Below are positions 3,973 through 22,155 of a stretch of DNA of 64,000 nucleotides, piece after piece (the first letter of the stretch is position 1; each line of letters starts with the position of its first letter). Under the pieces are notes generated by a model that ran no database searches, was not told the DNA's origin, and saw only the letters and a list, made by a program, of their open reading frames with translations. The stretch is from Felis catus (lineage: Eukaryota): assembly GCF_018350175.1 (NCBI RefSeq), contig NC_058372.1:29326001-29390000 (forward strand), read 5' to 3'. Position numbers and translations under genes: made by a program.

Positions 3973-6298
3973 TCACTCAGCCTCACCTTCCTGGGGCCGG
4001 GAGAGCAGGTTGAGTTTTCTTTGTAACTGGGCCCGGAGGTAGCGGAGGTCTTGCTGGTCAAGTCCGTGAGCCAGGCCCAGGTAGAGTGTAAGGAGGAGAG
4101 CAAGGAGGAGGCGGTCAGTGCCCAGGGTGGGCACCACCCACAGCACTGTCAGCAACTCCACACAGACTGGGTGGCGCAAGTGGGAGAAGAGTCTCAGAGC
4201 CCGGGGAGACTTCAGGGCCAGAGGCTCACCCAGCCCCAGCACATGGTAGTATACCTAGGAGGGAGAACAGCTTAGAAATGAAGTCAAACCCTTTTTGCAA
4301 CTTAGCCACCTCTTTCCTCCCTTTGGAGGAAACTTCCCCTTCTATAACTCAGGCCCAAGAACCACCCTTCTGAGACCTGGACTCCTGATTCTCATCTCTG
4401 CTAGGCCCAGGAGGCCTATGGTTTCTGACCTTTGAGGGAAAGCTGAGGGGAGACTCTCTTATAAGAAAAGGAAGTAGGCGAGGGAGTTGAAAGAAGAGGA
4501 AGGTGGAAGAGCATGGGAGGAGGAGGAGGAGGGAAATCCTTGAAAGGGAAAGAGGCATTCTAGAGGGAATCAGAGGTCTCAGGTAGCAATCTGGGAGCCT
4601 CACCTGTTTGAGGCCCATGAGCTCGGCGTAGTCAAAGACGAGAAGGATGCTGAAGATGAGGAGCCAGGCTATGACGTGGAGCACAAAGCAGAGAAGGGGC
4701 ACCCAGGTGGCCCATGGCTCAGCTCGAGCCTCCCACAACACAGGGCCTCTGGGTACAGGTTCCCAGTACCGCATCACCAACTGGGAAAGGATGAGGGGCT
4801 GGGTATCTCAGCAGCCTACCCTTGAAAGACCTAGACCCAGAGGCTGCCCCCACCCCAGGCTGGCCTGCAGTTCTCCCCACCTCTACCATGAGCGTCATAA
4901 ACAAAAATTCACCATGTGGAGCATCCCATGTGGGGTCCCAAGGATGTAAGGATAACCTGTATCTACCCTGAGGACTTAAGAGAACAGACGGGGGTGACCA
5001 GATAGGTACATAAAGTAGCCTGTGCCAAGCACACACTGAGAAAACAAATGTGTACTAACTGGGAAGCCTCCTCTTGAGACCTCAAGAAGTGATTCTGAAG
5101 AAAGGGTAGGACTGAAAGAGGTGTCACCAAAGGGATCTCAAGCAGAACAACATGAACAAAGTTGCAAAGGTGAGAATGCACATATGGTACTTGGGGAATG
5201 AGGAGTGGTACACCATTCTTGATAAGAAGAAGGATATGTGCTGTGGAGGAATGGAAGCTAAGATTAGAGTCCTAAACACCCTAAATTCCCCTAAACCCAC
5301 ATTTTATCAGAAGGCTAAGGTCCTTGCCCCTTCAACTGAGGGCACCCTTCTCACAGATTGTTTCCCTTGGGGACTCAGTGGCCAAGACCTCATACCTGCA
5401 ATGCCAGGGCAGTGCATGCCACGTACAGTGACCTCTGAAGAACCCCAAAATATCGAGACATCCACGCCTTCACTGTCTCAGTTGCCATGAGGCTGTGCTG
5501 CCCCACAAATAGTATCAGGAGACCCAGATCCCAAGCCAGGGGGGCAAGGATGCTGCAGTCCTGCAGAGCAGCCAGCCATCCTTGGCGGGCATCTAGGGGG
5601 AGTTCAAGAAGGGGACAAAAGATCAAGAAAGTTTCAGGAAACACCCCCTACCCTAATCTCCTCTTGGGGGTCCCAGGCCATGTCCTTTAATGCTTTCAAA
5701 AGCCTTAATGCTTCCTCTCCTGGTTTTTCCCATATTGCTTTTCCATTCTCTGCCCTTTCCCTTTTCCCCAGGCCTCCTTCAGAGTGGGGAGGAGGATTCC
5801 TTCAATCACAAAAGGCTTGGCTAGAGAGGCCACCATTGGACTGATCCTCGTGTTTTCGGTACTCCAAATGTGCCCTCTTTTTAACACTCCCCTCTCCATA
5901 GTCCTCTCTACAAAAGCACTTTCCTTTCCTCTGCTTCTTATCGCCTTTTCCCTCACCACTCAGTCCTAACTTCCGCCTCTCCAAACCGCTAATCCCTGAG
6001 TTCCTAATTTAGCCCTCCGGTCAGCCCTGAAGCTTCTCGGGCTTTCAAGGTTCTAGTTCCCTCTCCCGGACTTCCCCTGTCATTTGTCTCGAAGCCCCGC
6101 CCTCCCTCGCTCTCGTCCGGCTCCACCTCCAGCCACAGAGCTCATCCTCGATCCCTTCCGCTCACCCGGACCCCCAGGCTCCGGGAGCCCTCCAAGAAGT
6201 GGCCGAAGAGAGGTAAAGCGCACGAACTCCACTCCGGTGCCAAAAGCCAGGATGAAAGAGGCGAGGGCAGCAGGGACGAGGAGCAGAGATGGGGCCAT
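3973..6298 (-). CDS. NRM: Nurim, nuclear envelope membrane protein (262 aa, 4 exons)
   Basis: Exons 6298-6166, 5592-5396, 4780-4604, 4254-3973 total 789 nt, all GT-AG. N-term [34 protein letters not shown] motif, C-term [10 protein letters not shown]. Confidence 0.97.
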
Positions 6299-6299
6299 G

Positions 6300-6560
6300 G
6301 CGACACTCGGAGGGGTTGGGAAAAGGGCGGGTATGGGATTCCCGCGGCCGCAGGCCCCGCCCCCGCCCCCACCTCCAGCCTGGGGTCCTGCCCAGGAAGG
6401 CGTGGCTCCTTCGCGCCGCTGCCTCGGCGTGCGTTCTCCGCGCGCTTTTTTTTCACACTGTCCCTAGGGCGGGTCCCGGCGCCTTGACTGAGCCTGCGGT
6501 CGCCGCGTCATAGAAGGGAATGTTAGAATTCTGAGTGACAAGTGGAAACGTAGGCTGCTC
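6300..6560. promoter_or_regulatory. NRM CpG-island promoter
   Basis: CpG-dense, with tandem GC boxes at ~6354-6370 just upstream of the ATG. Confidence 0.7.
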
Positions 6561-7339
6561 TGCAGCCACTCGTGTGGGTTGAGTCGCAGCTCGGCTAGTT
6601 GTCTCATCTAAAATGAAGACCGTTCGTTCGTTTCTTTCAGGGTTCTTGTAGAAAACGAGAATTATAAACCGCCTTTTCTGTAACCTTAGCCACTAAACAT
6701 AGCCAAAGTCAGAGGTTACAAAGCGTCGGTTAACGCTTCAAATAGGAAACGGTGAGAGAACGGAAGACTGTTGACCGAGGCTGAAAACCCAAAGGTCTGA
6801 ATCACCTATTACATCTTGTTAAAAAGTTAGTGACCATTTTACCATAAAGTAAATTGTTTATTCTGTAACTTATTCTCTCCACTTGCCAAGGACAGAGAAT
6901 TTCTCTGTAACACTTAGATTATTTCTAATAATGCCAAAGGCTGTTGATCTATAATCATGAGAATAACAATGTTAAATATTTGTGATAGAAAATTTTGTGT
7001 TGTAAACTTTGTAGTAGGTTAATTTTACCCAAGCTTGTGATAATTATGACTTTACTCTGCAAGCTCATAAGCCTGACCACCATCCACGAGTCAGAAACCG
7101 CTAAGATCTTTTGTCTGAATTTTTTCCTCCAGACCTATTTGTAATACCTACAGAATAACATATTTGAAAAGCAAAGTAAAAATAAGGTTTTCCTCCATCT
7201 GAATTAAACATCATGTTGCTAAGGACCTAGTCACAGTACCTATGACCATAGCAGGGACCTTAGAACATCATGTAGCGAAATCCTTCAGCTTACAGACATA
7301 AGAATATAAAGAAAATTTACCAAGATGAGAACTAAGTTG

Positions 7340-7766
7340 CTGCTAGTCCTGTGGGCTCATGGATGAGAAAATTGCCAGGCAGCATCCCAAAGCCTTTACT
7401 TTCCTTCTGTTGGAGGATCAGTACTCCCACCCTCCTCTGAATCAGTGCTGTTGTAAACTATACCAGTCTTATGTTTTCCCTCCAGATGCACCCTTCACCC
7501 TTCTTGTTCGAGGTTGTCCCGAATGGACTAAATCAATGAAAATCACAGCTTTTATTGAGGAAGCCCTCTCTGCATAACTGCTCTCTCCTCTCAACCTTTT
7601 GGACTTAGAGGTGGTCACAATAGAGCTGTGAGTACTAGGGTACTGTAACATTATGATTTCTCTACACTCTCCCAACTTCCTTGTCATTTTCACTGTATTA
7701 AACTCTCTCCAATTATCCTAATTTGACTGTGCTGTTATTTCCTGCTAGGACCCTGATAGAAATACA
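7340..7766. mobile_element. Possible ancient ERVL-type LTR fragment
   Basis: Ends ...tttcctgctaggaccctgatagaaataca, resembling ERVL LTR termini. The family is not securely identified. Confidence 0.3.
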
Positions 7767-7996
7767 TTATTTGTACTACTATAGTATTCATTGGAAGTGT
7801 AAGAAAAGATCTCTATTCTCCAGAAGTTTAAACTGGGGCACTTCAATGTCACTAAGTCAAGATGCAGATGAGTGCTAAAATGGGGGTATAGAGACAGCTA
7901 GTACTGTAAGGCGCCCCATGAACCTCAAGGCCATAGACAGTTTCACACAGTACAAGATTCTGAGTGTGCAAGGGGACTAATATTTATTTGGGTCCT

Positions 7997-9047
7997 ACTG
8001 TGCTGACAGCTCATAGCCTGGAGCCTGCTTCAGATTCTGTCTCCCTCTCTCTGCCCTTCCCCCACCTTGTGCGTGTGTGCTCTCTCTCAAAAATAAATAA
8101 ACATTAAAAAAGAGAGACATGTTTATATGTTTAAAAGTCAGCAGTATGTGGCAAAGCTCATGCTCTTTCTACTACACCAAAGTTTTACAAACTTAAGTAT
8201 AATTTACTTGCAGAAAAGCCACTAACTAATCACCCATCTTTGTTATTAAAGTGAAATTCACATAACATAAAAACAACTATTTTAAAGAGAACAATCCAGT
8301 GACATTTAATACAATTCATAATGTGTGCAATCACCATCTCTATCTAGTTCCAAAGCATTTTTATCATTCCAAAATAAAACCCTATACCCATTAAGCAGTC
8401 ACTCCCCATTTCCCTTCTCCCAGCTGCTGACAACCACTACTCTACTCTGTCTCTATGAATTTACCTATTCCAAGTATTTCATGTAGGTGGAATCATCCCA
8501 GGTGACTTTGTGTCTGGCTTCTTTCACTTAGTATAATGCTTTTGAGGTTCATTCTCAAAACATTGTAGCAAGAATTGATACTTCATCTCCTTTTATGGAT
8601 GAATAATATTCTGTTGTGTGGATATGCCACATTTGTTTATTCACCTGTTAATGAACATTTTTCTTTTCACCTTTTGGCTCTAATGAAGTATAGATATGAA
8701 CATCTGTGTACAAGTATTTGTTTCAACATGTGTTTTAAGTCTTTTGGGTGCACACCTACTAGTGGAATTACTGGGTCTTTTGGTAATTCTATGTCTAATT
8801 TTTTAGAAATTGTCAGATTGTTTACCACAGCAGCTGAACCATTTTATATTCCCACCAGCAATATGTGATAAGGGTTCCAATTTCTCCACATCATTGAAAT
8901 CAACCAACTTTTAAACTTTAAATTTAAGGGGCACCTGGATGGTTCAATTGGTGGAACATGCAACTCTTGATCTTGGGGTTGTGAGTTCAAGCCCCACAGT
9001 GGGTGTAGAGCTTACTTTAAAGACAAAAATAAACAAATACATAAATA
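7997..9047. mobile_element. Truncated CAN-SINE (7997-8111), old L1M 3' fragment (~8240-8895, -) and short CAN-SINE (~8927-9047)
   Basis: SINE body and tail motifs. L1 antisense signatures include cttctttcacttagtataatg and ttttatattcccaccagcaat. Confidence 0.8.
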
Positions 9048-9131
9048 AGATGTAAGATTATAAATAAATAATACATAAATTTAAGATGTTTAAAAAAAAC
9101 CTGCACTACACCATAAGGCACAGAGTGAATA

Positions 9132-9137
9132 TTTATT
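9132..9137 (-). terminator. Probable distal MDC1 polyadenylation signal
   Basis: AATAAA in the minus-strand context gtgataaataaatattcactctgtgcctta, which I recall as the mammalian MDC1 mRNA 3' end. Confidence 0.7.
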
Positions 9138-9524
9138 TATCACAGAAATTAAACCTAAGCTCTAATTTTATAAATACTGGAAAAGCAGGCCAGAAAAGTG
9201 CAAAGATCTGCTCAAAGTCAAAACTAAAGAACACTTCTAACAAGATGGGGTGAAGAGAGAGGAAAATATTTTAGTAGCATTCCATACCTCCAACCTCAAA
9301 TTTACTCACTCCAAGCATCCCTTCAAGTTCTTGACACTAAAATTGTTTCTACTCTCTTTCAGAGGATGAATAAGAATCCCAGTCAAAGAGGGAGAGAGAT
9401 GGCTTCCAAACAGGAGGCAGGACACCATGTGTGCCACACAGCAGTAAGTACATCAGTCCTGCTAAGGGCAGCCACTTATGATATCTGAGAATGGGATTAC
9501 CCAACTCTAAGTGGCCATTTGAGA

Positions 9525-10284
9525 AATCTGTGTCTCATCAGGTGACCCAGCTGCCTCCCACTCCTTGTGTCTCAATCTAAACACTGAGTGACCACTGACA
9601 TGCTCCAACTCCTGGGCTGTAGTGTCTTTGTGGAGATGGTAAATAGACCTGAATAGCTTATAGGAGGCCCCTCCCTTCTCAAAGATGGGAGGGGTCTCTG
9701 CCTCAGTTTCCCCTTCTAGACAGCAGAGGGCTCTGGCTGTCCCCCACTGATATCATTATGGAACCCCAGCTGGGGTCCCTATTCAGTGCTGACTCCCCCC
9801 TCCTAGCAGCTGCTCTTCCAAACACACCCCTCCTCCTGCTGCCCCAGCCCTTGACACTGGCTGGCCTTCCCCCCCACACACAGGCCACGAGATGGGCTCC
9901 TGAGACCCTCCCCCAGCAAAGGGCTGCCTGCAGCTCATTCTGGAGAGAGAGAGCAGGCAAAAACTTGGACTGGCAGATAGAGGCCTGGGGAGTCAGAGTG
10001 CCTCAGTTTCCTCCTCAATAGCAACTGAGTATTTATAGTATCTGAAAGCAGGCTTGATACTTGATGGCACAAATGTAGACTTCATCTCCTTTCCCGCTTC
10101 CTGCAGGAAGCAGGATGGGGGCAGGTAGCACCTGGTAGGCAGGATGGTTTGCCCCTCCCTTCTCCATCCCTTCTGGAAGTTTTGGGGCCTTAGTGCCTGC
10201 AACAGCCAGCCTTGGGCAAATAAAAGACTAGGTTGTTTACTAAAAAACAAACAAACAAACAAACAAAAAAATACAAAAAAAAAA
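9525..10284 (+). pseudogene. Putative 5'-truncated retrocopy (mRNA 3' UTR fragment, parent unidentified), antisense within the MDC1 3' UTR
   Basis: GC-rich, non-SINE/LINE sequence. AATAAA at 10219-10224 is followed 17 nt later by an A-rich tail (10242-10284). MDC1 3'UTR-like sequence lies on both sides. No clean TSD. Confidence 0.65.
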
Positions 10285-10474
10285 CCAACTGTGGCTAAAA
10301 TCTCATTATCTTTTTGTTTATCCATAAGCCTTTTTAGCCCCACCCATGTTCCAAGACAAATCAGGTCAGTATACCCCAATTCTTTCTAAAGCCCTAGGTT
10401 CTTTCTTCCAAATCTTTTCTAACACTTTATTTACTGGTCTGGGAGGGAAAACAGTAAGTACTGTGGTGATGTTT

Positions 10475-13400
10475 TCACGAGGATGACATTTCCAAAGTGG
10501 AGAGGATGAAGGCCTCTGGCTTGGCTTCCTGCTTCAGCACTCCTGTCAGCAGGAACTCAGGTGAGAGAATGGGCAGCCCAACCCGAAATGGAATAGAGCA
10601 TCGAGAGAAGTCCTGGGAGCATGTAATCACAACTCTCTGAGGCTGGGAAAGACAGAGAGCAAAGACAAAGTCATGGGTGAAAAACAATCCTAGAAATAGG
10701 TTTGGAGTCCACAAATCAGTTTCAGCATCGCTACAATATACTTCCTGATAGGAAGCACACTTGCTGGAAGTACTCTTCCCAGAAAAACTGAACCTGAATT
10801 TATTCGAGCTTTTAAAATTAACTACAATTTACAAGGAATGTAAGAGATGGAAGAACAAGATAAATTACACAGCAAAGGAGCAAACAGAAAAACCCAGACT
10901 GGAACATTCTAAAGAACAACTGACATAGTTTCTGCAGGAAGTCAATGGAATAAGAAAGGCTGGGTGGGTTGGGGGGGTATCTTCTAGAGTAAAAGAGAAT
11001 TAAGAGACATGCAATTGTGAGGGGAGCCTGGGTGGCTCAGTCAGTTAAGCAACTTATTTCAGCTCAAGTCATGATCTCAGGGGTGATGAGATGGAGCCCT
11101 GAGTTGGGGCTCTGTGCTGTCAGGGCAGGGCCTGCTTGGGATCCTCTCTCTCTGCCCCTTCCTGCTCACATGTGCAAGCATACTCTCTCTCAAAAATAAA
11201 CAGGGGTGCCTGAGTGGCTCAGTTGGTTAAGCCTCCAACTTTGGCTCAGGTCATGATCTCACAGTTCGTGGGTTTGAGCCCCGCCTCAGGCTCTGTGTTG
11301 ACAGCCGAGAGCCTGGAGCCAGCTTCAGATTCTGTCTCTTTCTGCCCCTACCCTGCTTGCACTGTGTCTCTCTCTCTCTCAAAAGTAAATAAACATTCGG
11401 GGCGCCTGGGTGGCTCAGTCGGTTAAGCGTCTGACTTCGGCTCAGGTCATGATCTCACAGTTTGTGAGTTCGAGCCCCACATCGGGCTCTGTGCTGACAG
11501 CTTGGAGCCTGGAGCCTGCTTAGATTCTGTGTCTCCCTCTCTCTCTGACCCTCCCCCCTTTCATGCTCTGTCTCTGTCTCAAAAATAAATAAAAATTTAA
11601 AAAATAAATAAACATTAAAAAAGTTTTTTTAAATAACCATTAAAAAAAAAGGAGATTGCAATTGTGGCAATACTTGGACCTCATCTGAATCTTGACTTGA
11701 ATTATAAAGACACATTTTTGGCCAATTGGAAAAATCTGACTAATGGACTCTGAGAAAATGACAAGAAACTATTGTTAGTTTTGTTATGGATCAATAATGG
11801 CATTGTGATTATGTAAACAAACATATATCATTTCTTACAGAAGTATACTTTAAGTATGTAGGGGGAAATAATATGATGCTTGTAGTTTCCTTTAAGATAC
11901 TTCAGCAAAGGGGCGCCTGGGTGGCTCAGTCAGTAAAGCATCTGACTCTTGGTTTCAGCCCATGACATGATCTCATGGTTTGTGAGTCTGAGCCCCGCAT
12001 CAGGCTCTGCGCAGAGCCTGCTTGGGATGATCTGTCTCCCCTCTCTTTCTGCCCCTACCTTGCTCATACTCTTTCAAAATAAATAAACTTTACAAAACTT
12101 TTTTTAAGTACTTCAGCAAAGAAAAAAAAAGGGATAAATGCAGACGATATAGCAAAATCTAAGCTACCTTGTTAAATCTGAGTGACTGATATATGGAGGT
12201 TCATTGATATATGGAAGTTCTCTCTCCCTTTGTGTATATTTAAAATATTAAAAATGCAAAATAAAAATCCATTTGGAATCAGCAAACCTCTCCTACATTC
12301 CTATCCCTTTATATACCACAGAGCTTACCCCCACCCTCTCACTACTCTGTTTCTATCCATACCAGTATTCTCCAAACTTTTCCCATTCCAGCCACCTCTT
12401 TAACTGCCACCTCACTAGACCCAAAACATACCACCCATACCTTATAGGAGCGGGGCATGCTGGGTAGGACAGTGCCTCCACAGCAGCTGATGATCTCTCC
12501 CATTTGAGGTGGTGGTGGCTGGACTCCTGGGGTCACATGGATCTCATAGCCCTAAGCAGAAGAAAACAGTGAAGACCATAGATGTATGCACTGAAAGCCC
12601 ATGAACAGCTGGAGAACCTCAGGAAGGAGGCCTGAAGCATGGGGCAGAAGACAGCCTCTCACCTCTAGCAACCTTCTCTCCCGAGCCCGGCTCAGGGCAT
12701 CTCGAAGGCTGAAGCCAAAGTTCTTCTCCTGCTCAGGATCAGTCACCACATATTCATCCGGGGGCAAGAAGCAACCAGCCTTGCGGGACTAAGGAGAGCA
12801 GCAGTGAGCATCAAAGCTGAGCCCAGCCTACCACCCAGCTCTTCTGCTCAGCATGTGGACGGAGCTTATGAAATGTTCTTTGAATTAAGCTTTCTGCCTC
12901 ATTCACCTCCCTTGTCTTCCTTTACCCCCTTTCCCCTCACTACTTTCTAGAGCATCATGTGAGCAGTCTTCTGCCATCAATATCTCTGCTGGTGTGCTAT
13001 CACCTCCTGGCCTCTCACCTGGTGCAGCCAGTCCAGGGAGAGGATGGGGATCCCCCGCCCCAGGGCACACAGGAACTTGACCGTGCGGCGGACTCGATCA
13101 GTCACCAGGTGGGAAGCCTCTGCCACTGAGCTGGCCAGACTCCCACCCAGGGCCAGCACCGCCCGTTCTCCACGGGCATCCACCACACCTGTGAAGAGTA
13201 CCTGTGGAGGGAGTTAGCCTAAGCTGGTCACGGCAACCCATGCCATCAGTGTCTATCTCTGAACCCCTAAGTCTCCTCCCATCCTCCCATGTCTGTCTCC
13301 CACCAAGCCCCACGCCCCTTCTCTCCTACTTTGGGTGCTGTGGACTCTTGGTTAGGTTTGACCCGCCGAAGGCTGTGGCTTGGGATTCCCCTGGGCTCCT

Positions 13401-19400: not shown

Positions 19401-22155
19401 TCAAGAACAGCTACAGCCCTCTTTGCCCCAGCATCCTCTTCTGCTGGAAGCTGGCTCTTTCTTATATCTGCCACCACTGAAGCTGCTAAGGATATGCCCT
19501 CCACATCTGTCTCACAGTCCCCAGATGGAGGTTGGGCTTCCTCTAGATGCATCACAGGCAGCTTCGCTTGGCCCTCTTCTACTTCCACATCTGTTTGATC
19601 TGTCCATACCACAGGCACCTGATGCTTCTCCACAAGTATAACAGCTGACCCTGGTGGGACTTTCTCCTTCACTTGTATGTTGATGTCCACTGTGGCAGAG
19701 GCTTGGCTTCTCTCCAGATGGACCGCAAGTGAGCTCTTATCTTTGTCCACCCCTAGATCACTGTTTTGGGGAGGAGGTTGCCTCTTTTCTGAATATGCCT
19801 TGTCTGTGTGACCCTTGAAAACAGTTCCTCTCTTTTCCATTGGGAGCCCCTCCTCCTCCATGTCTGTGTCGCTGTCTCTCCCAGTAGAGGTTTGGTTTTG
19901 CTCCCGAAGGGCCACAGGTTGGGCCCTGTCCTCTTCCAAATCTGTATCTCTGTTCCATGTAGTGGCTCGGCTCTCTTTCAGATGTGCCAAAGCGAGTGCT
20001 GCTAAGACTTCTTCCTCACCATCTGTATTGCTGTCAATCACCACAGAGGCTCGGCTTCTCTCTAGAGGGACTGCCAGCTGGATCTCACCTTCCCCCACAT
20101 CTGTATCACTACCAGTTGGGCTCTCCTGTAGATGTACCAAGGCATGTGTCCGAGGACTCTCTGTACTAATTCCATGGAAGATTTGCCTCTTCTTCATAGG
20201 AACTACAGCTGGGGTTGCAGGGATCTCTTCTTCTTCCACATCAGTATCACTGTCTATGAAGTCAGAAGGCTGAGCCCTTTCCAAATGGACCACAGCAGGC
20301 CTTCCTGGAGGCCTGCTCTCATCATCCACATCTGTGTCACTGTCTTCCCCAGCAGGTTGGTTCCTCTCCAGTATCACCCCAAGTGGGACCACCCCATTCC
20401 TTGCATCCCTTTCAACTTCTGTGTCATTGTTTCTCTCTTTTACTGAACACTGATTCTTTTCAAGCTGGATTTCAGTTGCCATAGCTGTAGACTGTTTTGT
20501 CTCTGCAGTGGAGCCTCTTCTGGCAGTTGAGGAGGCCTCTCCTGATGCTGGATGTTGACTTTCTTCCTCATCTGTGTCACTGTCCAGGTTGAATGCAAAA
20601 GGTGGCCCAGGGCCATCTGGGGCAGGGGAAGGCCCCTCTTCATCACTGTGAAGGGAACAGAAAGCAAAGAATCTAAAGCATGTTTCCCAAGAAGGAATAT
20701 TCTACTCAACAGGGAGCTCCCTGAGAGCAGACACAAGGCAGTAGCTGTTTTTTTTCTCCCCAGCAATTAGTTCTCTACTTGGCACGTCAGGTTAATTAAA
20801 GTTCAGCTGAGCAAAAGACTATGTGCAATTCCCTGGCCCCACTTTCATGATAATCATCTCTCAGAGATGGATCCTATAGCCCTGGTTCCTCCTCCTTTTG
20901 AAGACTCAAGTATCTGGTCCTCTGCACTCACCTCTCTGGAACCACTGCAGCTAGAGGGCAGGTTCTTGGTTCTTTCACCACACACCTTTCTGAAGGAGAA
21001 TCTATAAAGAATAGAAAGGAGTAAGTTGACTATTTTAAACTCACCATCCCCATCTTCTCACCCACCCTCCCAATACACAAACATACCTACTTCCTCCTCT
21101 GAGTCCTCAGCCAACAGGAGTCCCTGGGGTTGAGTTCGTCCCTGTACCCTGGGTGTCTCTTCTATAGTTAGAGGGCCCCGGGAAACAAAGGCCAGGGGAA
21201 CATTCAGGCGATGGTACTGGCAGGGCAAGTCAGCAAAGAGAATCAACTCCTGGTCCCTCAGCCGATGACTCACCCCTGGGCTTAGGACCTTAGGAGGCCT
21301 TAGGACTTGAGTACCATTGAGGCTACCACAATCTTGAAGGACAGGTGCCTTGTCCCAGGCCAAGATTTCAATCACTGCATGTTGTTTGGAGATGGATGAA
21401 AAGGGCAGGATCACAGAGCAATCAGGCATTCGGCCTACCATATTCTTCCCGAGATACAGAGGGAAATCTAAGAATTAGAGAGGTAGATAGATTAAGGCCA
21501 GAGTCTTGGCCTGCTATCAGGAAAATATTCCTGTTAAGTACCCCACTACTAACTCAAGGTCTCCACATACACAAGAAAATAAAAGGCTGTAGTATACCTA
21601 AGTATTGAAGAATATAAGCAATGTTATTCATTGTCAATATCTATNNNNNNNNNNNNNNNNNNNNNNNNNNNNNNNNNNNNNNNNNNNNNNNNNNNNNNNN
21701 NNNNNNNNNNNNNNNNNNNNNNNNNNNNNNNNNNNNNNNNNNNNNNNNNNNNNNNNNNNNNNNNNNNNNNNNNNNNNNNNNNNNNNNNNNNNNTCTATCT
21801 GAATCTCTTCACCTTCTCCTACCAAAGTAAAATTGAGCCCATTGAGTCCAGGGCACTTGCCTGGAACAATCAATTCAATCAGCCCCCTCTTCTCCATTCC
21901 CAGTGAAAAACATTTTCAGATCTCCTTGAAATATATATAAGCTTCTTGCAACCTTCCAACTACCTCCCCATAAAAATAAGGGGCCTGTGTCAGTACTCGA
22001 GCATCTAATAACCTCTGACCTTTTTCTGGTCCATGGGCACTACTGAAGATATGCAGTCGTCCTACGGGCTCCAAGCTACACCCCAAGGATTCACTGGGTA
22101 TCTCTTTCTCCTCCTCTTCCTCAACCTCCCAGTTAATAGCTTGGGTGTCTTCCAT
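10475..22155 (-). CDS. MDC1: Mediator of DNA damage checkpoint 1 (1919 aa, 14 coding exons)
   Basis: Coding exons 22155-22020, 21467-21087, 21001-20932, 20645-19180, 18454-18389, 18220-18131, 17182-16406, 16300-16257, 15552-13531, 13449-13330, 13201-13019, 12788-12663, 12551-12441, 10642-10475 total 5760 nt, GT-AG and phase-consistent. MEDTQ start, FHA domain, SDTD repeats, TQxF motifs, PST repeats and tandem BRCT (VLFTGVVD...[20 protein letters not shown]). Confidence 0.97.
11020..12100 (+). mobile_element. Four CAN-SINEs (11020-11201, 11203-11397, 11399-11625, 11910-12100) within an old L1M fragment in the last MDC1 intron
   Basis: tRNA-like heads, (CT)n tracts and AATAAA tails. Outer TSD gcaattgtg, inner TSD aataaacatt. 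Confidence 0.9.
14098..15288 (-). repeat. MDC1 PST coding tandem repeat, 10 units of 37-42 aa
   Basis: Consensus [41 protein letters not shown]. Unit lengths 41, 41, 37, 41, 42, 37, 38, 38, 41, 41 aa. Confidence 0.92.
15790..16015 (+). mobile_element. Young felid CAN-SINE (SINEC_Fc type)
   Basis: Full length, CpGs intact, perfect TSD aagaggatggttgg. Confidence 0.93.
17371..18015 (+). mobile_element. Three CAN-SINEs (17371-17558, young 17559-17790, 17838-18015)
   Basis: SINE heads and tails. TSDs aataaagttaaa and ttctcatag. Confidence 0.9.
18550..19127 (+). mobile_element. MaLR solo LTR (MLT1A-like) interrupted by a CAN-SINE (18706-18914)
   Basis: MLT1 motifs cccccaaattcatatgctgaaatc, gccatgtgaggaca and aataaatttctgtt...taagccacc, ending gactaagata. 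SINE TSD aaaaagagaccccagag. Confidence 0.85.

What the first reader, a model, noticed from the sequence alone, without database searches (positions are those of the whole stretch)
9525..10284. Antisense retrocopied mRNA 3' end embedded in the MDC1 3' UTR: possible trans-antisense link between MDC1 and another gene
Seen: between the MDC1 stop (10475) and its distal AATAAA (9132-9137) lies ~720 bp of GC-rich sequence with no SINE, LINE or LTR signature. On the + strand it ends in AATAAA, 17 nt, then an A-rich tail, which is the layout of a processed mRNA 3' end. From recollection, the human MDC1 3' UTR matches both flanks (9113-9520 and 10285-10470) but lacks this block. Inference: an L1-mediated retrocopy of an unrelated gene's 3' UTR inserted antisense. 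Long MDC1 mRNAs would then carry hundreds of nt complementary to the parent mRNA, allowing duplex formation, endo-siRNA production, ADAR editing or masking of miRNA sites. I could not identify the parent and the TSD is not clean. The A-rich tract may partly predate the insertion.
Basis: partly seen in the sequence, partly recalled or inferred. Interest (0 to 1): 0.75.

Follow-up and report, generated by a model that had tools for sequence, protein, structure and literature searches.

The report
URM1 retrocopy antisense in MDC1 UTR
A roughly 715-base, back-to-front copy of the tail end of the URM1 messenger RNA sits between the stop codon and the far polyadenylation signal of the DNA-repair gene MDC1 in a cat-family genome; long MDC1 messages would likely carry it and could pair with URM1 RNA, but it is probably a passenger of a kind already catalogued in humans.

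Summary
A translated frame of the block hit 11 proteins, 10 of them spurious UTR translations. One is a rat model named after RIKEN 2900073H19, which is gene 68205, Urm1. Another frame joins a Pfam Urm1 domain to the block's homolog. Homology spans 9529-10242. One homolog stops matching at the first base of the A tail and continues in non-A sequence, so the tail was added to an RNA. This is a 5'-truncated, UTR-only retrocopy with no target-site duplication. It is antisense to MDC1 and lengthens the long UTR from about 600 to 1360 nt. Inclusion in MDC1 mRNA is likely but not shown. No evidence of regulation was found. The class is known: 69 human coding transcripts carry antisense retrocopy sequence (PMC7290577). 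Endo-siRNA output is minimal in non-rodent oocytes (PMC13399003). Age, empty site and cat URM1 identity are untested.

The parts
9527..10241 (+). 5'-truncated retrocopy of the URM1 3' UTR, with no coding sequence. It starts about 270 nt after the URM1 stop (estimated from P0132). The 5' junction lies between 9521 and 9529.
   Evidence: Homology seen from 9529 (P0132/P0137 aa 216; 0 of 40 shuffles reach the score) to 10242 (P0125).
10219..10224 (+). URM1-derived AATAAA, 17 nt before the tail
   Evidence: P0121 and P0125 read through the same signal.
10242..10284 (+). A-rich tail with AAAC repeats (36 A of 43), absent from homolog P0125 at this point
   Evidence: Whether part of it predates the insertion is untested.
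10475..10641 (-). Last coding exon of MDC1, with TGA at 10477-10475
10285..10474 (-). Proximal MDC1 3' UTR
   Evidence: no block homolog aligns here
10426..10431 (-). Proximal AATAAA of MDC1, with a purine-rich downstream region (U 22%, purine 69%), so likely weak
   Evidence: strength is inferred
9114..9520 (-). Distal MDC1 3' UTR, orthologous to the end of the human UTR
   Evidence: Primers of PMC9137087 Table S6. One matches 9479-9494 with 3 mismatches; the full-length-UTR reverse primer matches 15 of 15 gene bases at the distal end (by eye).
9132..9137 (-). Distal AATAAA of MDC1

Best explanation
The block is a 5'-truncated, A-tailed copy of the last ~715 nt of the URM1 mRNA, likely made by LINE-1 reverse transcription, lying antisense between the MDC1 stop and its distal poly(A) signal; long MDC1 mRNAs likely carry it as a passenger with probably no selected effect on URM1. 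Shown: URM1 origin, the end at the parent's poly(A) site, the added tail, orientation and position. Inferred: L1 as the agent, insertion into a T/A-rich spot without a clear duplication, use of the distal MDC1 signal, and near-neutrality. Its most likely real effect is in cis: a long UTR of about 1360 nt instead of about 600.
For: Parent, route 1: frame 9653-10018 hit 11 proteins; 10 of 11 align to the block. P0131 is a rat model named after RIKEN cDNA 2900073H19, which is gene 68205 (PMC2563021), which is Urm1 (PMC4366019). Parent, route 2: P0132 (E 2e-12) has Pfam Urm1 at aa 30-90 and the block's homolog at aa 216-363 in one frame. RNA origin: P0125 matches 9851-10242 (207 of 221 determined codon positions), then runs 72 residues with no A tract and no match to the MDC1 flank. 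All 11 homologs aligned fall inside the block and none reaches the flanks offered. No URM1 coding sequence is in the window (best E 0.025). Inclusion: the distal end matches the human full-length UTR primer. Six small runs from 4 studies, labelled 'RNA? (a guess)', hold 0.96-0.99 of the words of 9400-10420, which covers both junctions. Neutrality: the class is common (PMC7290577); such pairing erodes, and non-rodent oocytes make minimal endo-siRNA (PMC13399003); the antisense strand has no unusual fold (z 0.11).
Against: There is no TSD. No reads were laid, so strand, level and 3' end use are unknown. The six runs may be DNA. The six runs on record as RNA hold only 0.22-0.65 of the words. A proximal AATAAA could end MDC1 before the insert. 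Neutrality is argued from base rates; no constraint test was possible. The cat's own URM1 sequence and an empty orthologous site were not seen (searches found nothing).
Confidence: 0.68

Rival explanations
1. Functional trans-antisense link: long MDC1 mRNA would pair with URM1 mRNA over ~700 nt and change its stability, editing or small-RNA output, tying DNA-damage signalling to Urm1 levels in felids.
For: Orientation and length allow pairing. Homologs are 82-94% identical at determined codon positions (inflated by local alignment), so the cat parent is probably about 90% or more (inference). Human precedents with correlated expression: NSD1/PRMT1 and ATR/EIF2AK1 (PMC7290577).
Against: No expression, duplex, editing or small-RNA data. 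The truncated oocyte Dicer is confined to Muridae and Cricetidae, and endo-siRNA levels in non-rodent oocytes are minimal. Separately expressed strands were not among the stronger RNAi inducers in mouse cells (PMC6391682 passages).
Confidence: 0.08
2. The insert lies mostly outside MDC1 mRNA: felid MDC1 would end at the proximal AATAAA (10431-10426), which leaves the retrocopy as an intergenic fossil.
For: A canonical hexamer lies 43 nt after the stop. No run on record as RNA holds the whole stretch (0 of 6).
Against: The region downstream of the proximal signal is purine-rich, without a U/GU element. The distal signal is intact and matches the human UTR end. Six small RNA-like runs hold the whole stretch.
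Confidence: 0.15
3. Cis effect under selection: the insert would retune MDC1 itself through UTR length (UPF1-linked decay), a replacement miR-22 site, or a plus-strand poly(A) signal that ends a cis-antisense RNA.
For: The UTR more than doubles. Mouse Mdc1 with a long UTR is UPF1-bound in spermatids (PMC4858158). The cat ortholog of the human miR-22 site lacks the seed match, while the insert has one at 9555-9549 (seed recalled).
Against: 407 of 2000 shuffles of the insert also hold that 7-mer. No plus-strand RNA was shown.
Confidence: 0.07
4. Not a retrocopy: ancestral MDC1 UTR, a transposon, or a DNA-level duplication.
For: No TSD; no repeat library was searched; the empty site was not seen.
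Against: Homology to URM1 mRNA by two routes, ending at the poly(A) site with an added tail.
Confidence: 0.02

Closest known systems
Human protein-coding transcripts with antisense retrocopy sequence, trans-NAT candidates (Kubiak et al. 2020, PMC7290577; e.g. NSD1 with a PRMT1 retrocopy, ATR with an EIF2AK1 retrocopy)
   Same: A retrocopy inside a host gene's transcribed region, opposite to the host. The paper counts 71 transcripts with 56 retrocopies, 47 cases on the opposite strand, most in UTRs, and 69 coding transcripts complementary to a parent.
   Different: This one is felid, joins MDC1 and URM1, is UTR-only (CDS-based retrocopy catalogues would probably miss it; inference), and has no expression data.
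5'-truncated processed pseudogenes made by LINE-1 (recalled knowledge)
   Same: mRNA 3' end, poly(A) signal, added A tail, 5' truncation.
   Different: No TSD found; no exon junction is included, so intron loss cannot be seen.
Antisense pseudogene-derived endo-siRNAs of mouse oocytes, e.g. Sirena/Elob (review PMC13399003)
   Same: An antisense retrocopy fragment in a transcript that could pair with the parent mRNA in trans.
   Different: That pathway rests on a rodent-specific truncated Dicer and uses lncRNA hosts. Here the host is a coding mRNA in a carnivore and no small RNAs were examined.

Membership tests
Retrocopy (RNA-derived copy of an mRNA) | Homology to the mRNA of a gene located elsewhere | tested here: met
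   URM1 by two routes (36, 38); no URM1 coding sequence in the window
Retrocopy (RNA-derived copy of an mRNA) | Ends at the parent's poly(A) site with an added A tail, without the parent's downstream DNA | tested here: met
   AATAAA + 17 nt + tail. P0125 leaves the match at 10242 and goes on in non-A sequence. This rests on one unnamed homolog.
Retrocopy (RNA-derived copy of an mRNA) | Loss of introns | not testable with these tools
   The copy covers 3' UTR only, so no exon junction is expected
Retrocopy (RNA-derived copy of an mRNA) | Absent at the orthologous site in outgroups | tested here: inconclusive
   Searches for flank-spanning sequences found nothing; absence in human is recalled only
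Canonical LINE-1 TPRT insertion | Target-site duplication | tested here: not met
   Best match 8 nt with 1 mismatch. Not filed as canonical TPRT; L1 involvement remains inferred.
Canonical LINE-1 TPRT insertion | Endonuclease-type T/A target site | tested here: inconclusive
   The left junction follows a short T run and the right end is A-rich, but the pre-insertion site is unknown
Retrocopy-derived trans-NAT candidate in a coding transcript | Retrocopy antisense within the host's last exon | tested here: met
   Lies between the stop (10477-10475) and the distal signal that matches the human UTR end
Retrocopy-derived trans-NAT candidate in a coding transcript | Present in host transcripts | tested here: inconclusive
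   Six RNA-like runs hold 0.96-0.99 of the words, but their kind is a guess and no reads were laid
Retrocopy-derived trans-NAT candidate in a coding transcript | Duplex with, or effect on, the parent mRNA | not testable with these tools
   No expression, cross-linking or knock-out data
Pseudogene-derived endo-siRNA source | 21-23 nt RNAs from both strands, Dicer-dependent | not testable with these tools
   No small-RNA data; the prior is low outside murids
Known transposon or structured RNA | Match to a repeat or RNA family | tested here: inconclusive
   Rfam: no match near gathering score. No repeat library was held. URM1 homology covers the whole block.

The most novel reading that the evidence does not exclude
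In cat-family animals, the long MDC1 mRNA is a natural antisense partner of URM1 mRNA. A UTR-only retrocopy wires a DNA-damage mediator to the Urm1 tRNA-thiolation pathway, switchable by the choice between a proximal and a distal MDC1 poly(A) site, and at the same time moves the MDC1 miR-22 site into the insert.
Probability: 0.07. Interest if true: 0.68.

Novelty: new member of a known kind. Interest (0 to 1): 0.3.

Why it matters
It is a clean, testable pair of named genes: two coding mRNAs with about 700 nt of complementarity, and two MDC1 poly(A) signals that would include or exclude the antisense stretch. That makes it a convenient case for asking whether mRNA-mRNA trans-pairing does anything outside mouse oocytes. 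In practice, probes, siRNAs or unstranded reads in this region can confuse MDC1 and URM1 in cats. As a class it is already catalogued, and most such inserts are probably passengers.

Tried and rejected
No whole genome is held for this window, so BLASTN to the parent was impossible. No reads were laid on the locus, so strand, level and ends of RNA stay open. The metagenome scan with a 22-nt motif found 0 stretches; with P0125, 341 pattern matches and none confirmed. Paper searches: motif 0, '2900073H19Rik' 0, URM1 + retrocopy 0. Exact look-up of 7 window ORFs: 0 of 7 in the collection. The distal-flank frame, searched to find an empty site, gave no candidate. P0129, 1 of the 11 hits, is repetitive, had no match in the window, was not looked up and was dropped. 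Rfam: 3 chance-level matches. The fold of the antisense strand is no better than shuffles (10 of 20). TSD rejected. The miR-22 site in the insert is not above chance (407 of 2000). The deletion primer match is not significant window-wide (0.83 expected); it counts only by its position. Dating: 14 differences between window and P0125 split 5/5/4 (window, P0125, unresolved) and P0125's species is unknown, so no age is claimed. Five look-ups of earlier findings showed nothing on this locus.

Full report
Setting. The window is from a cat-family genome: the large 5' exon of MDC1 is 99% identical to a cluster named for cheetah, 97% to Panthera, 87% to hyaena and 77% to dog. MDC1 runs on the minus strand, and its last coding exon ends in TGA at 10477-10475. 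No whole genome is held for this window.

Observation. 9521-10241 has GC 0.54 against 0.41 and 0.38 for the flanks. On the plus strand it ends in AATAAA (10219-10224), 17 nt, and a tail of 36 A in 43 nt. This layout occurs 4 times in the window, so it is not proof by itself. There is no target-site duplication; the best match is 8 nt with 1 mismatch. Its downstream region is purine-rich (U 22%, purine 69%), so it is likely weak (inference).

Parent, route 1. Gene callers sometimes translate UTRs by mistake, so I searched with the block's longest plus-strand stop-free frame (9653-10018). It hit 11 proteins; 10 align to the block, and the repetitive P0129 does not. Of the 10 looked up, 2 carry names: an unnamed bat product, and a rat model 'similar to RIKEN cDNA 2900073H19'. 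A table row in PMC2563021 gives that clone as gene 68205 (passage), and a table row in PMC4366019 gives 68205 as Urm1 (passage).

Parent, route 2. A profile of these hits found one longer protein among 8000 candidates, P0132 (E 2e-12). It has a Pfam Urm1 domain at residues 30-90 and the block's homolog at residues 216-363 in the same frame. It is therefore a spliced URM1 sequence read through a frameshift into the UTR. From it, the block starts about 270 nt after the URM1 stop (estimate). The window holds no URM1 coding sequence.

RNA origin. All 11 homologs aligned by back-translation fall within 9543-10242, though 9200-10480 was offered (108-375 bits; 3 shuffles gave 17-22). A finer test extends homology to 9529 (0 of 40 shuffles reach the score). 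P0125 matches 207 of 221 determined codon positions, stops at 10242, the first base of the tail, and runs on for 72 residues that have no A tract and do not match the MDC1 flank. The source locus thus lacks the tail, as expected if the tail was added to an RNA; this rests on one unnamed homolog. The block is a 5'-truncated, UTR-only retrocopy of URM1. LINE-1 as the agent is inferred from general knowledge; the missing duplication keeps it out of the canonical class.

Is it in MDC1 mRNA? Likely, but not shown. [quoted passage not shown] The reverse primer matches 15 of 15 gene bases by eye, and a deletion primer matches 9479-9494 with 3 mismatches (0.83 expected by chance window-wide). Of 24 runs listed, 14 under three organism labels hold 0.96-0.99 of the words of 9400-10420; 2 of these may be the source. 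Six of the 14 are small (22-216 million letters, 4 studies) and labelled 'RNA? (a guess: may be DNA)'. URM1 mRNA alone could not supply the flank and junction words. Against: those six could be capture or other DNA libraries; the six runs on record as RNA hold only 0.22-0.65; the proximal signal exists; and no reads were laid. If the distal signal is used, the UTR is about 1360 nt rather than about 600.

How it most likely works. A URM1 mRNA 3' end was reverse-transcribed into the MDC1 UTR, opposite to MDC1. In that orientation its own poly(A) signal does not cut MDC1 short, which probably explains why it was tolerated (inference). Long MDC1 mRNAs would carry about 715 nt complementary to URM1 mRNA. 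Homologs are 82-94% identical at determined positions (inflated figures), so pairing is chemically possible. Nothing here shows that it happens or matters. The review PMC13399003 (passages) states that the truncated oocyte Dicer is limited to Muridae and Cricetidae, that non-rodent oocytes hold minimal endo-siRNA, and that antisense pseudogene pairing erodes over time. It also allows that another mammalian lineage might have evolved RNAi. In PMC6391682 (passages), separately expressed strands were not among the stronger RNAi inducers. The antisense strand folds no better than shuffles. I put a passenger with minor cis effects first (0.68), exclusion by the proximal signal second (0.15), then a functional trans link (0.08) and a selected cis role (0.07).

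Comparison. PMC7290577 (passages and section 3.4.2) counts 71 human transcripts with sequence of 56 retrocopies, 47 cases on the opposite strand, most in UTRs, and 69 coding transcripts complementary to a parent; NSD1/PRMT1 and ATR/EIF2AK1 are examples. This locus fits that kind at the DNA level. I found no paper on it: URM1 + retrocopy gave 0 and the 3' end motif gave 0, in an open-access library only; retrocopy databases and bioRxiv supplements were not searchable. Other papers seen: PMC4858158 (passages), PMC5564639 (passages), PMC9137087 (passages), PMC1475852 (one passage, no use), PMC5408686 (listing only).

Not settled. The age and the empty site remain open (searches found nothing; absence in human is recalled). 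So do the identity to the cat's own URM1, whether the AAAC tract is older than the insertion, and all expression questions.

Verdict. The feature is real and the parent is identified. It is a new member of a known kind, with function unproven and probably absent. Interest 0.3.

Noticed in passing
window 9478-9463 and 9555-9549 (minus strand): The cat ortholog of the human MDC1 miR-22 site, placed by published deletion primers, lacks the seed match GGCAGCT (seed recalled). The insert carries one about 80 nt upstream, but 407 of 2000 shuffles do too.
   Followed up: partly
window 10431-10426 (minus strand): Canonical AATAAA 43 nt after the MDC1 stop; if used, MDC1 would have a UTR of under 100 nt.
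   Followed up: partly
window 6298-10241 (plus strand): The retrocopy's plus-strand poly(A) signal lies about 3.9 kb from the GC-rich start of the next gene (NRM, name recalled from its N-terminus). It could end divergent transcripts that overlap the MDC1 3' end as a cis-antisense RNA.
   Followed up: no
window 9660-9950: This part of the URM1 3' UTR is well kept in rat and bat homologs (87-88% at determined positions), which may mark a conserved regulatory element of URM1.
   Followed up: no
P0132-P0140 (unnamed): A cluster of 9 frameshifted, intronless URM1 translations on contigs up to 10.6 kb: probably another URM1 processed pseudogene in another mammal.
   Followed up: partly
window 9699-9710 and 9999-10010: Two copies of a short motif that I recall as MIR-core-like lie inside the URM1-derived block (repeat D8).
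   Followed up: no
window about 21640-21800: Run of N (assembly gap) in an MDC1 intron.
   Followed up: no
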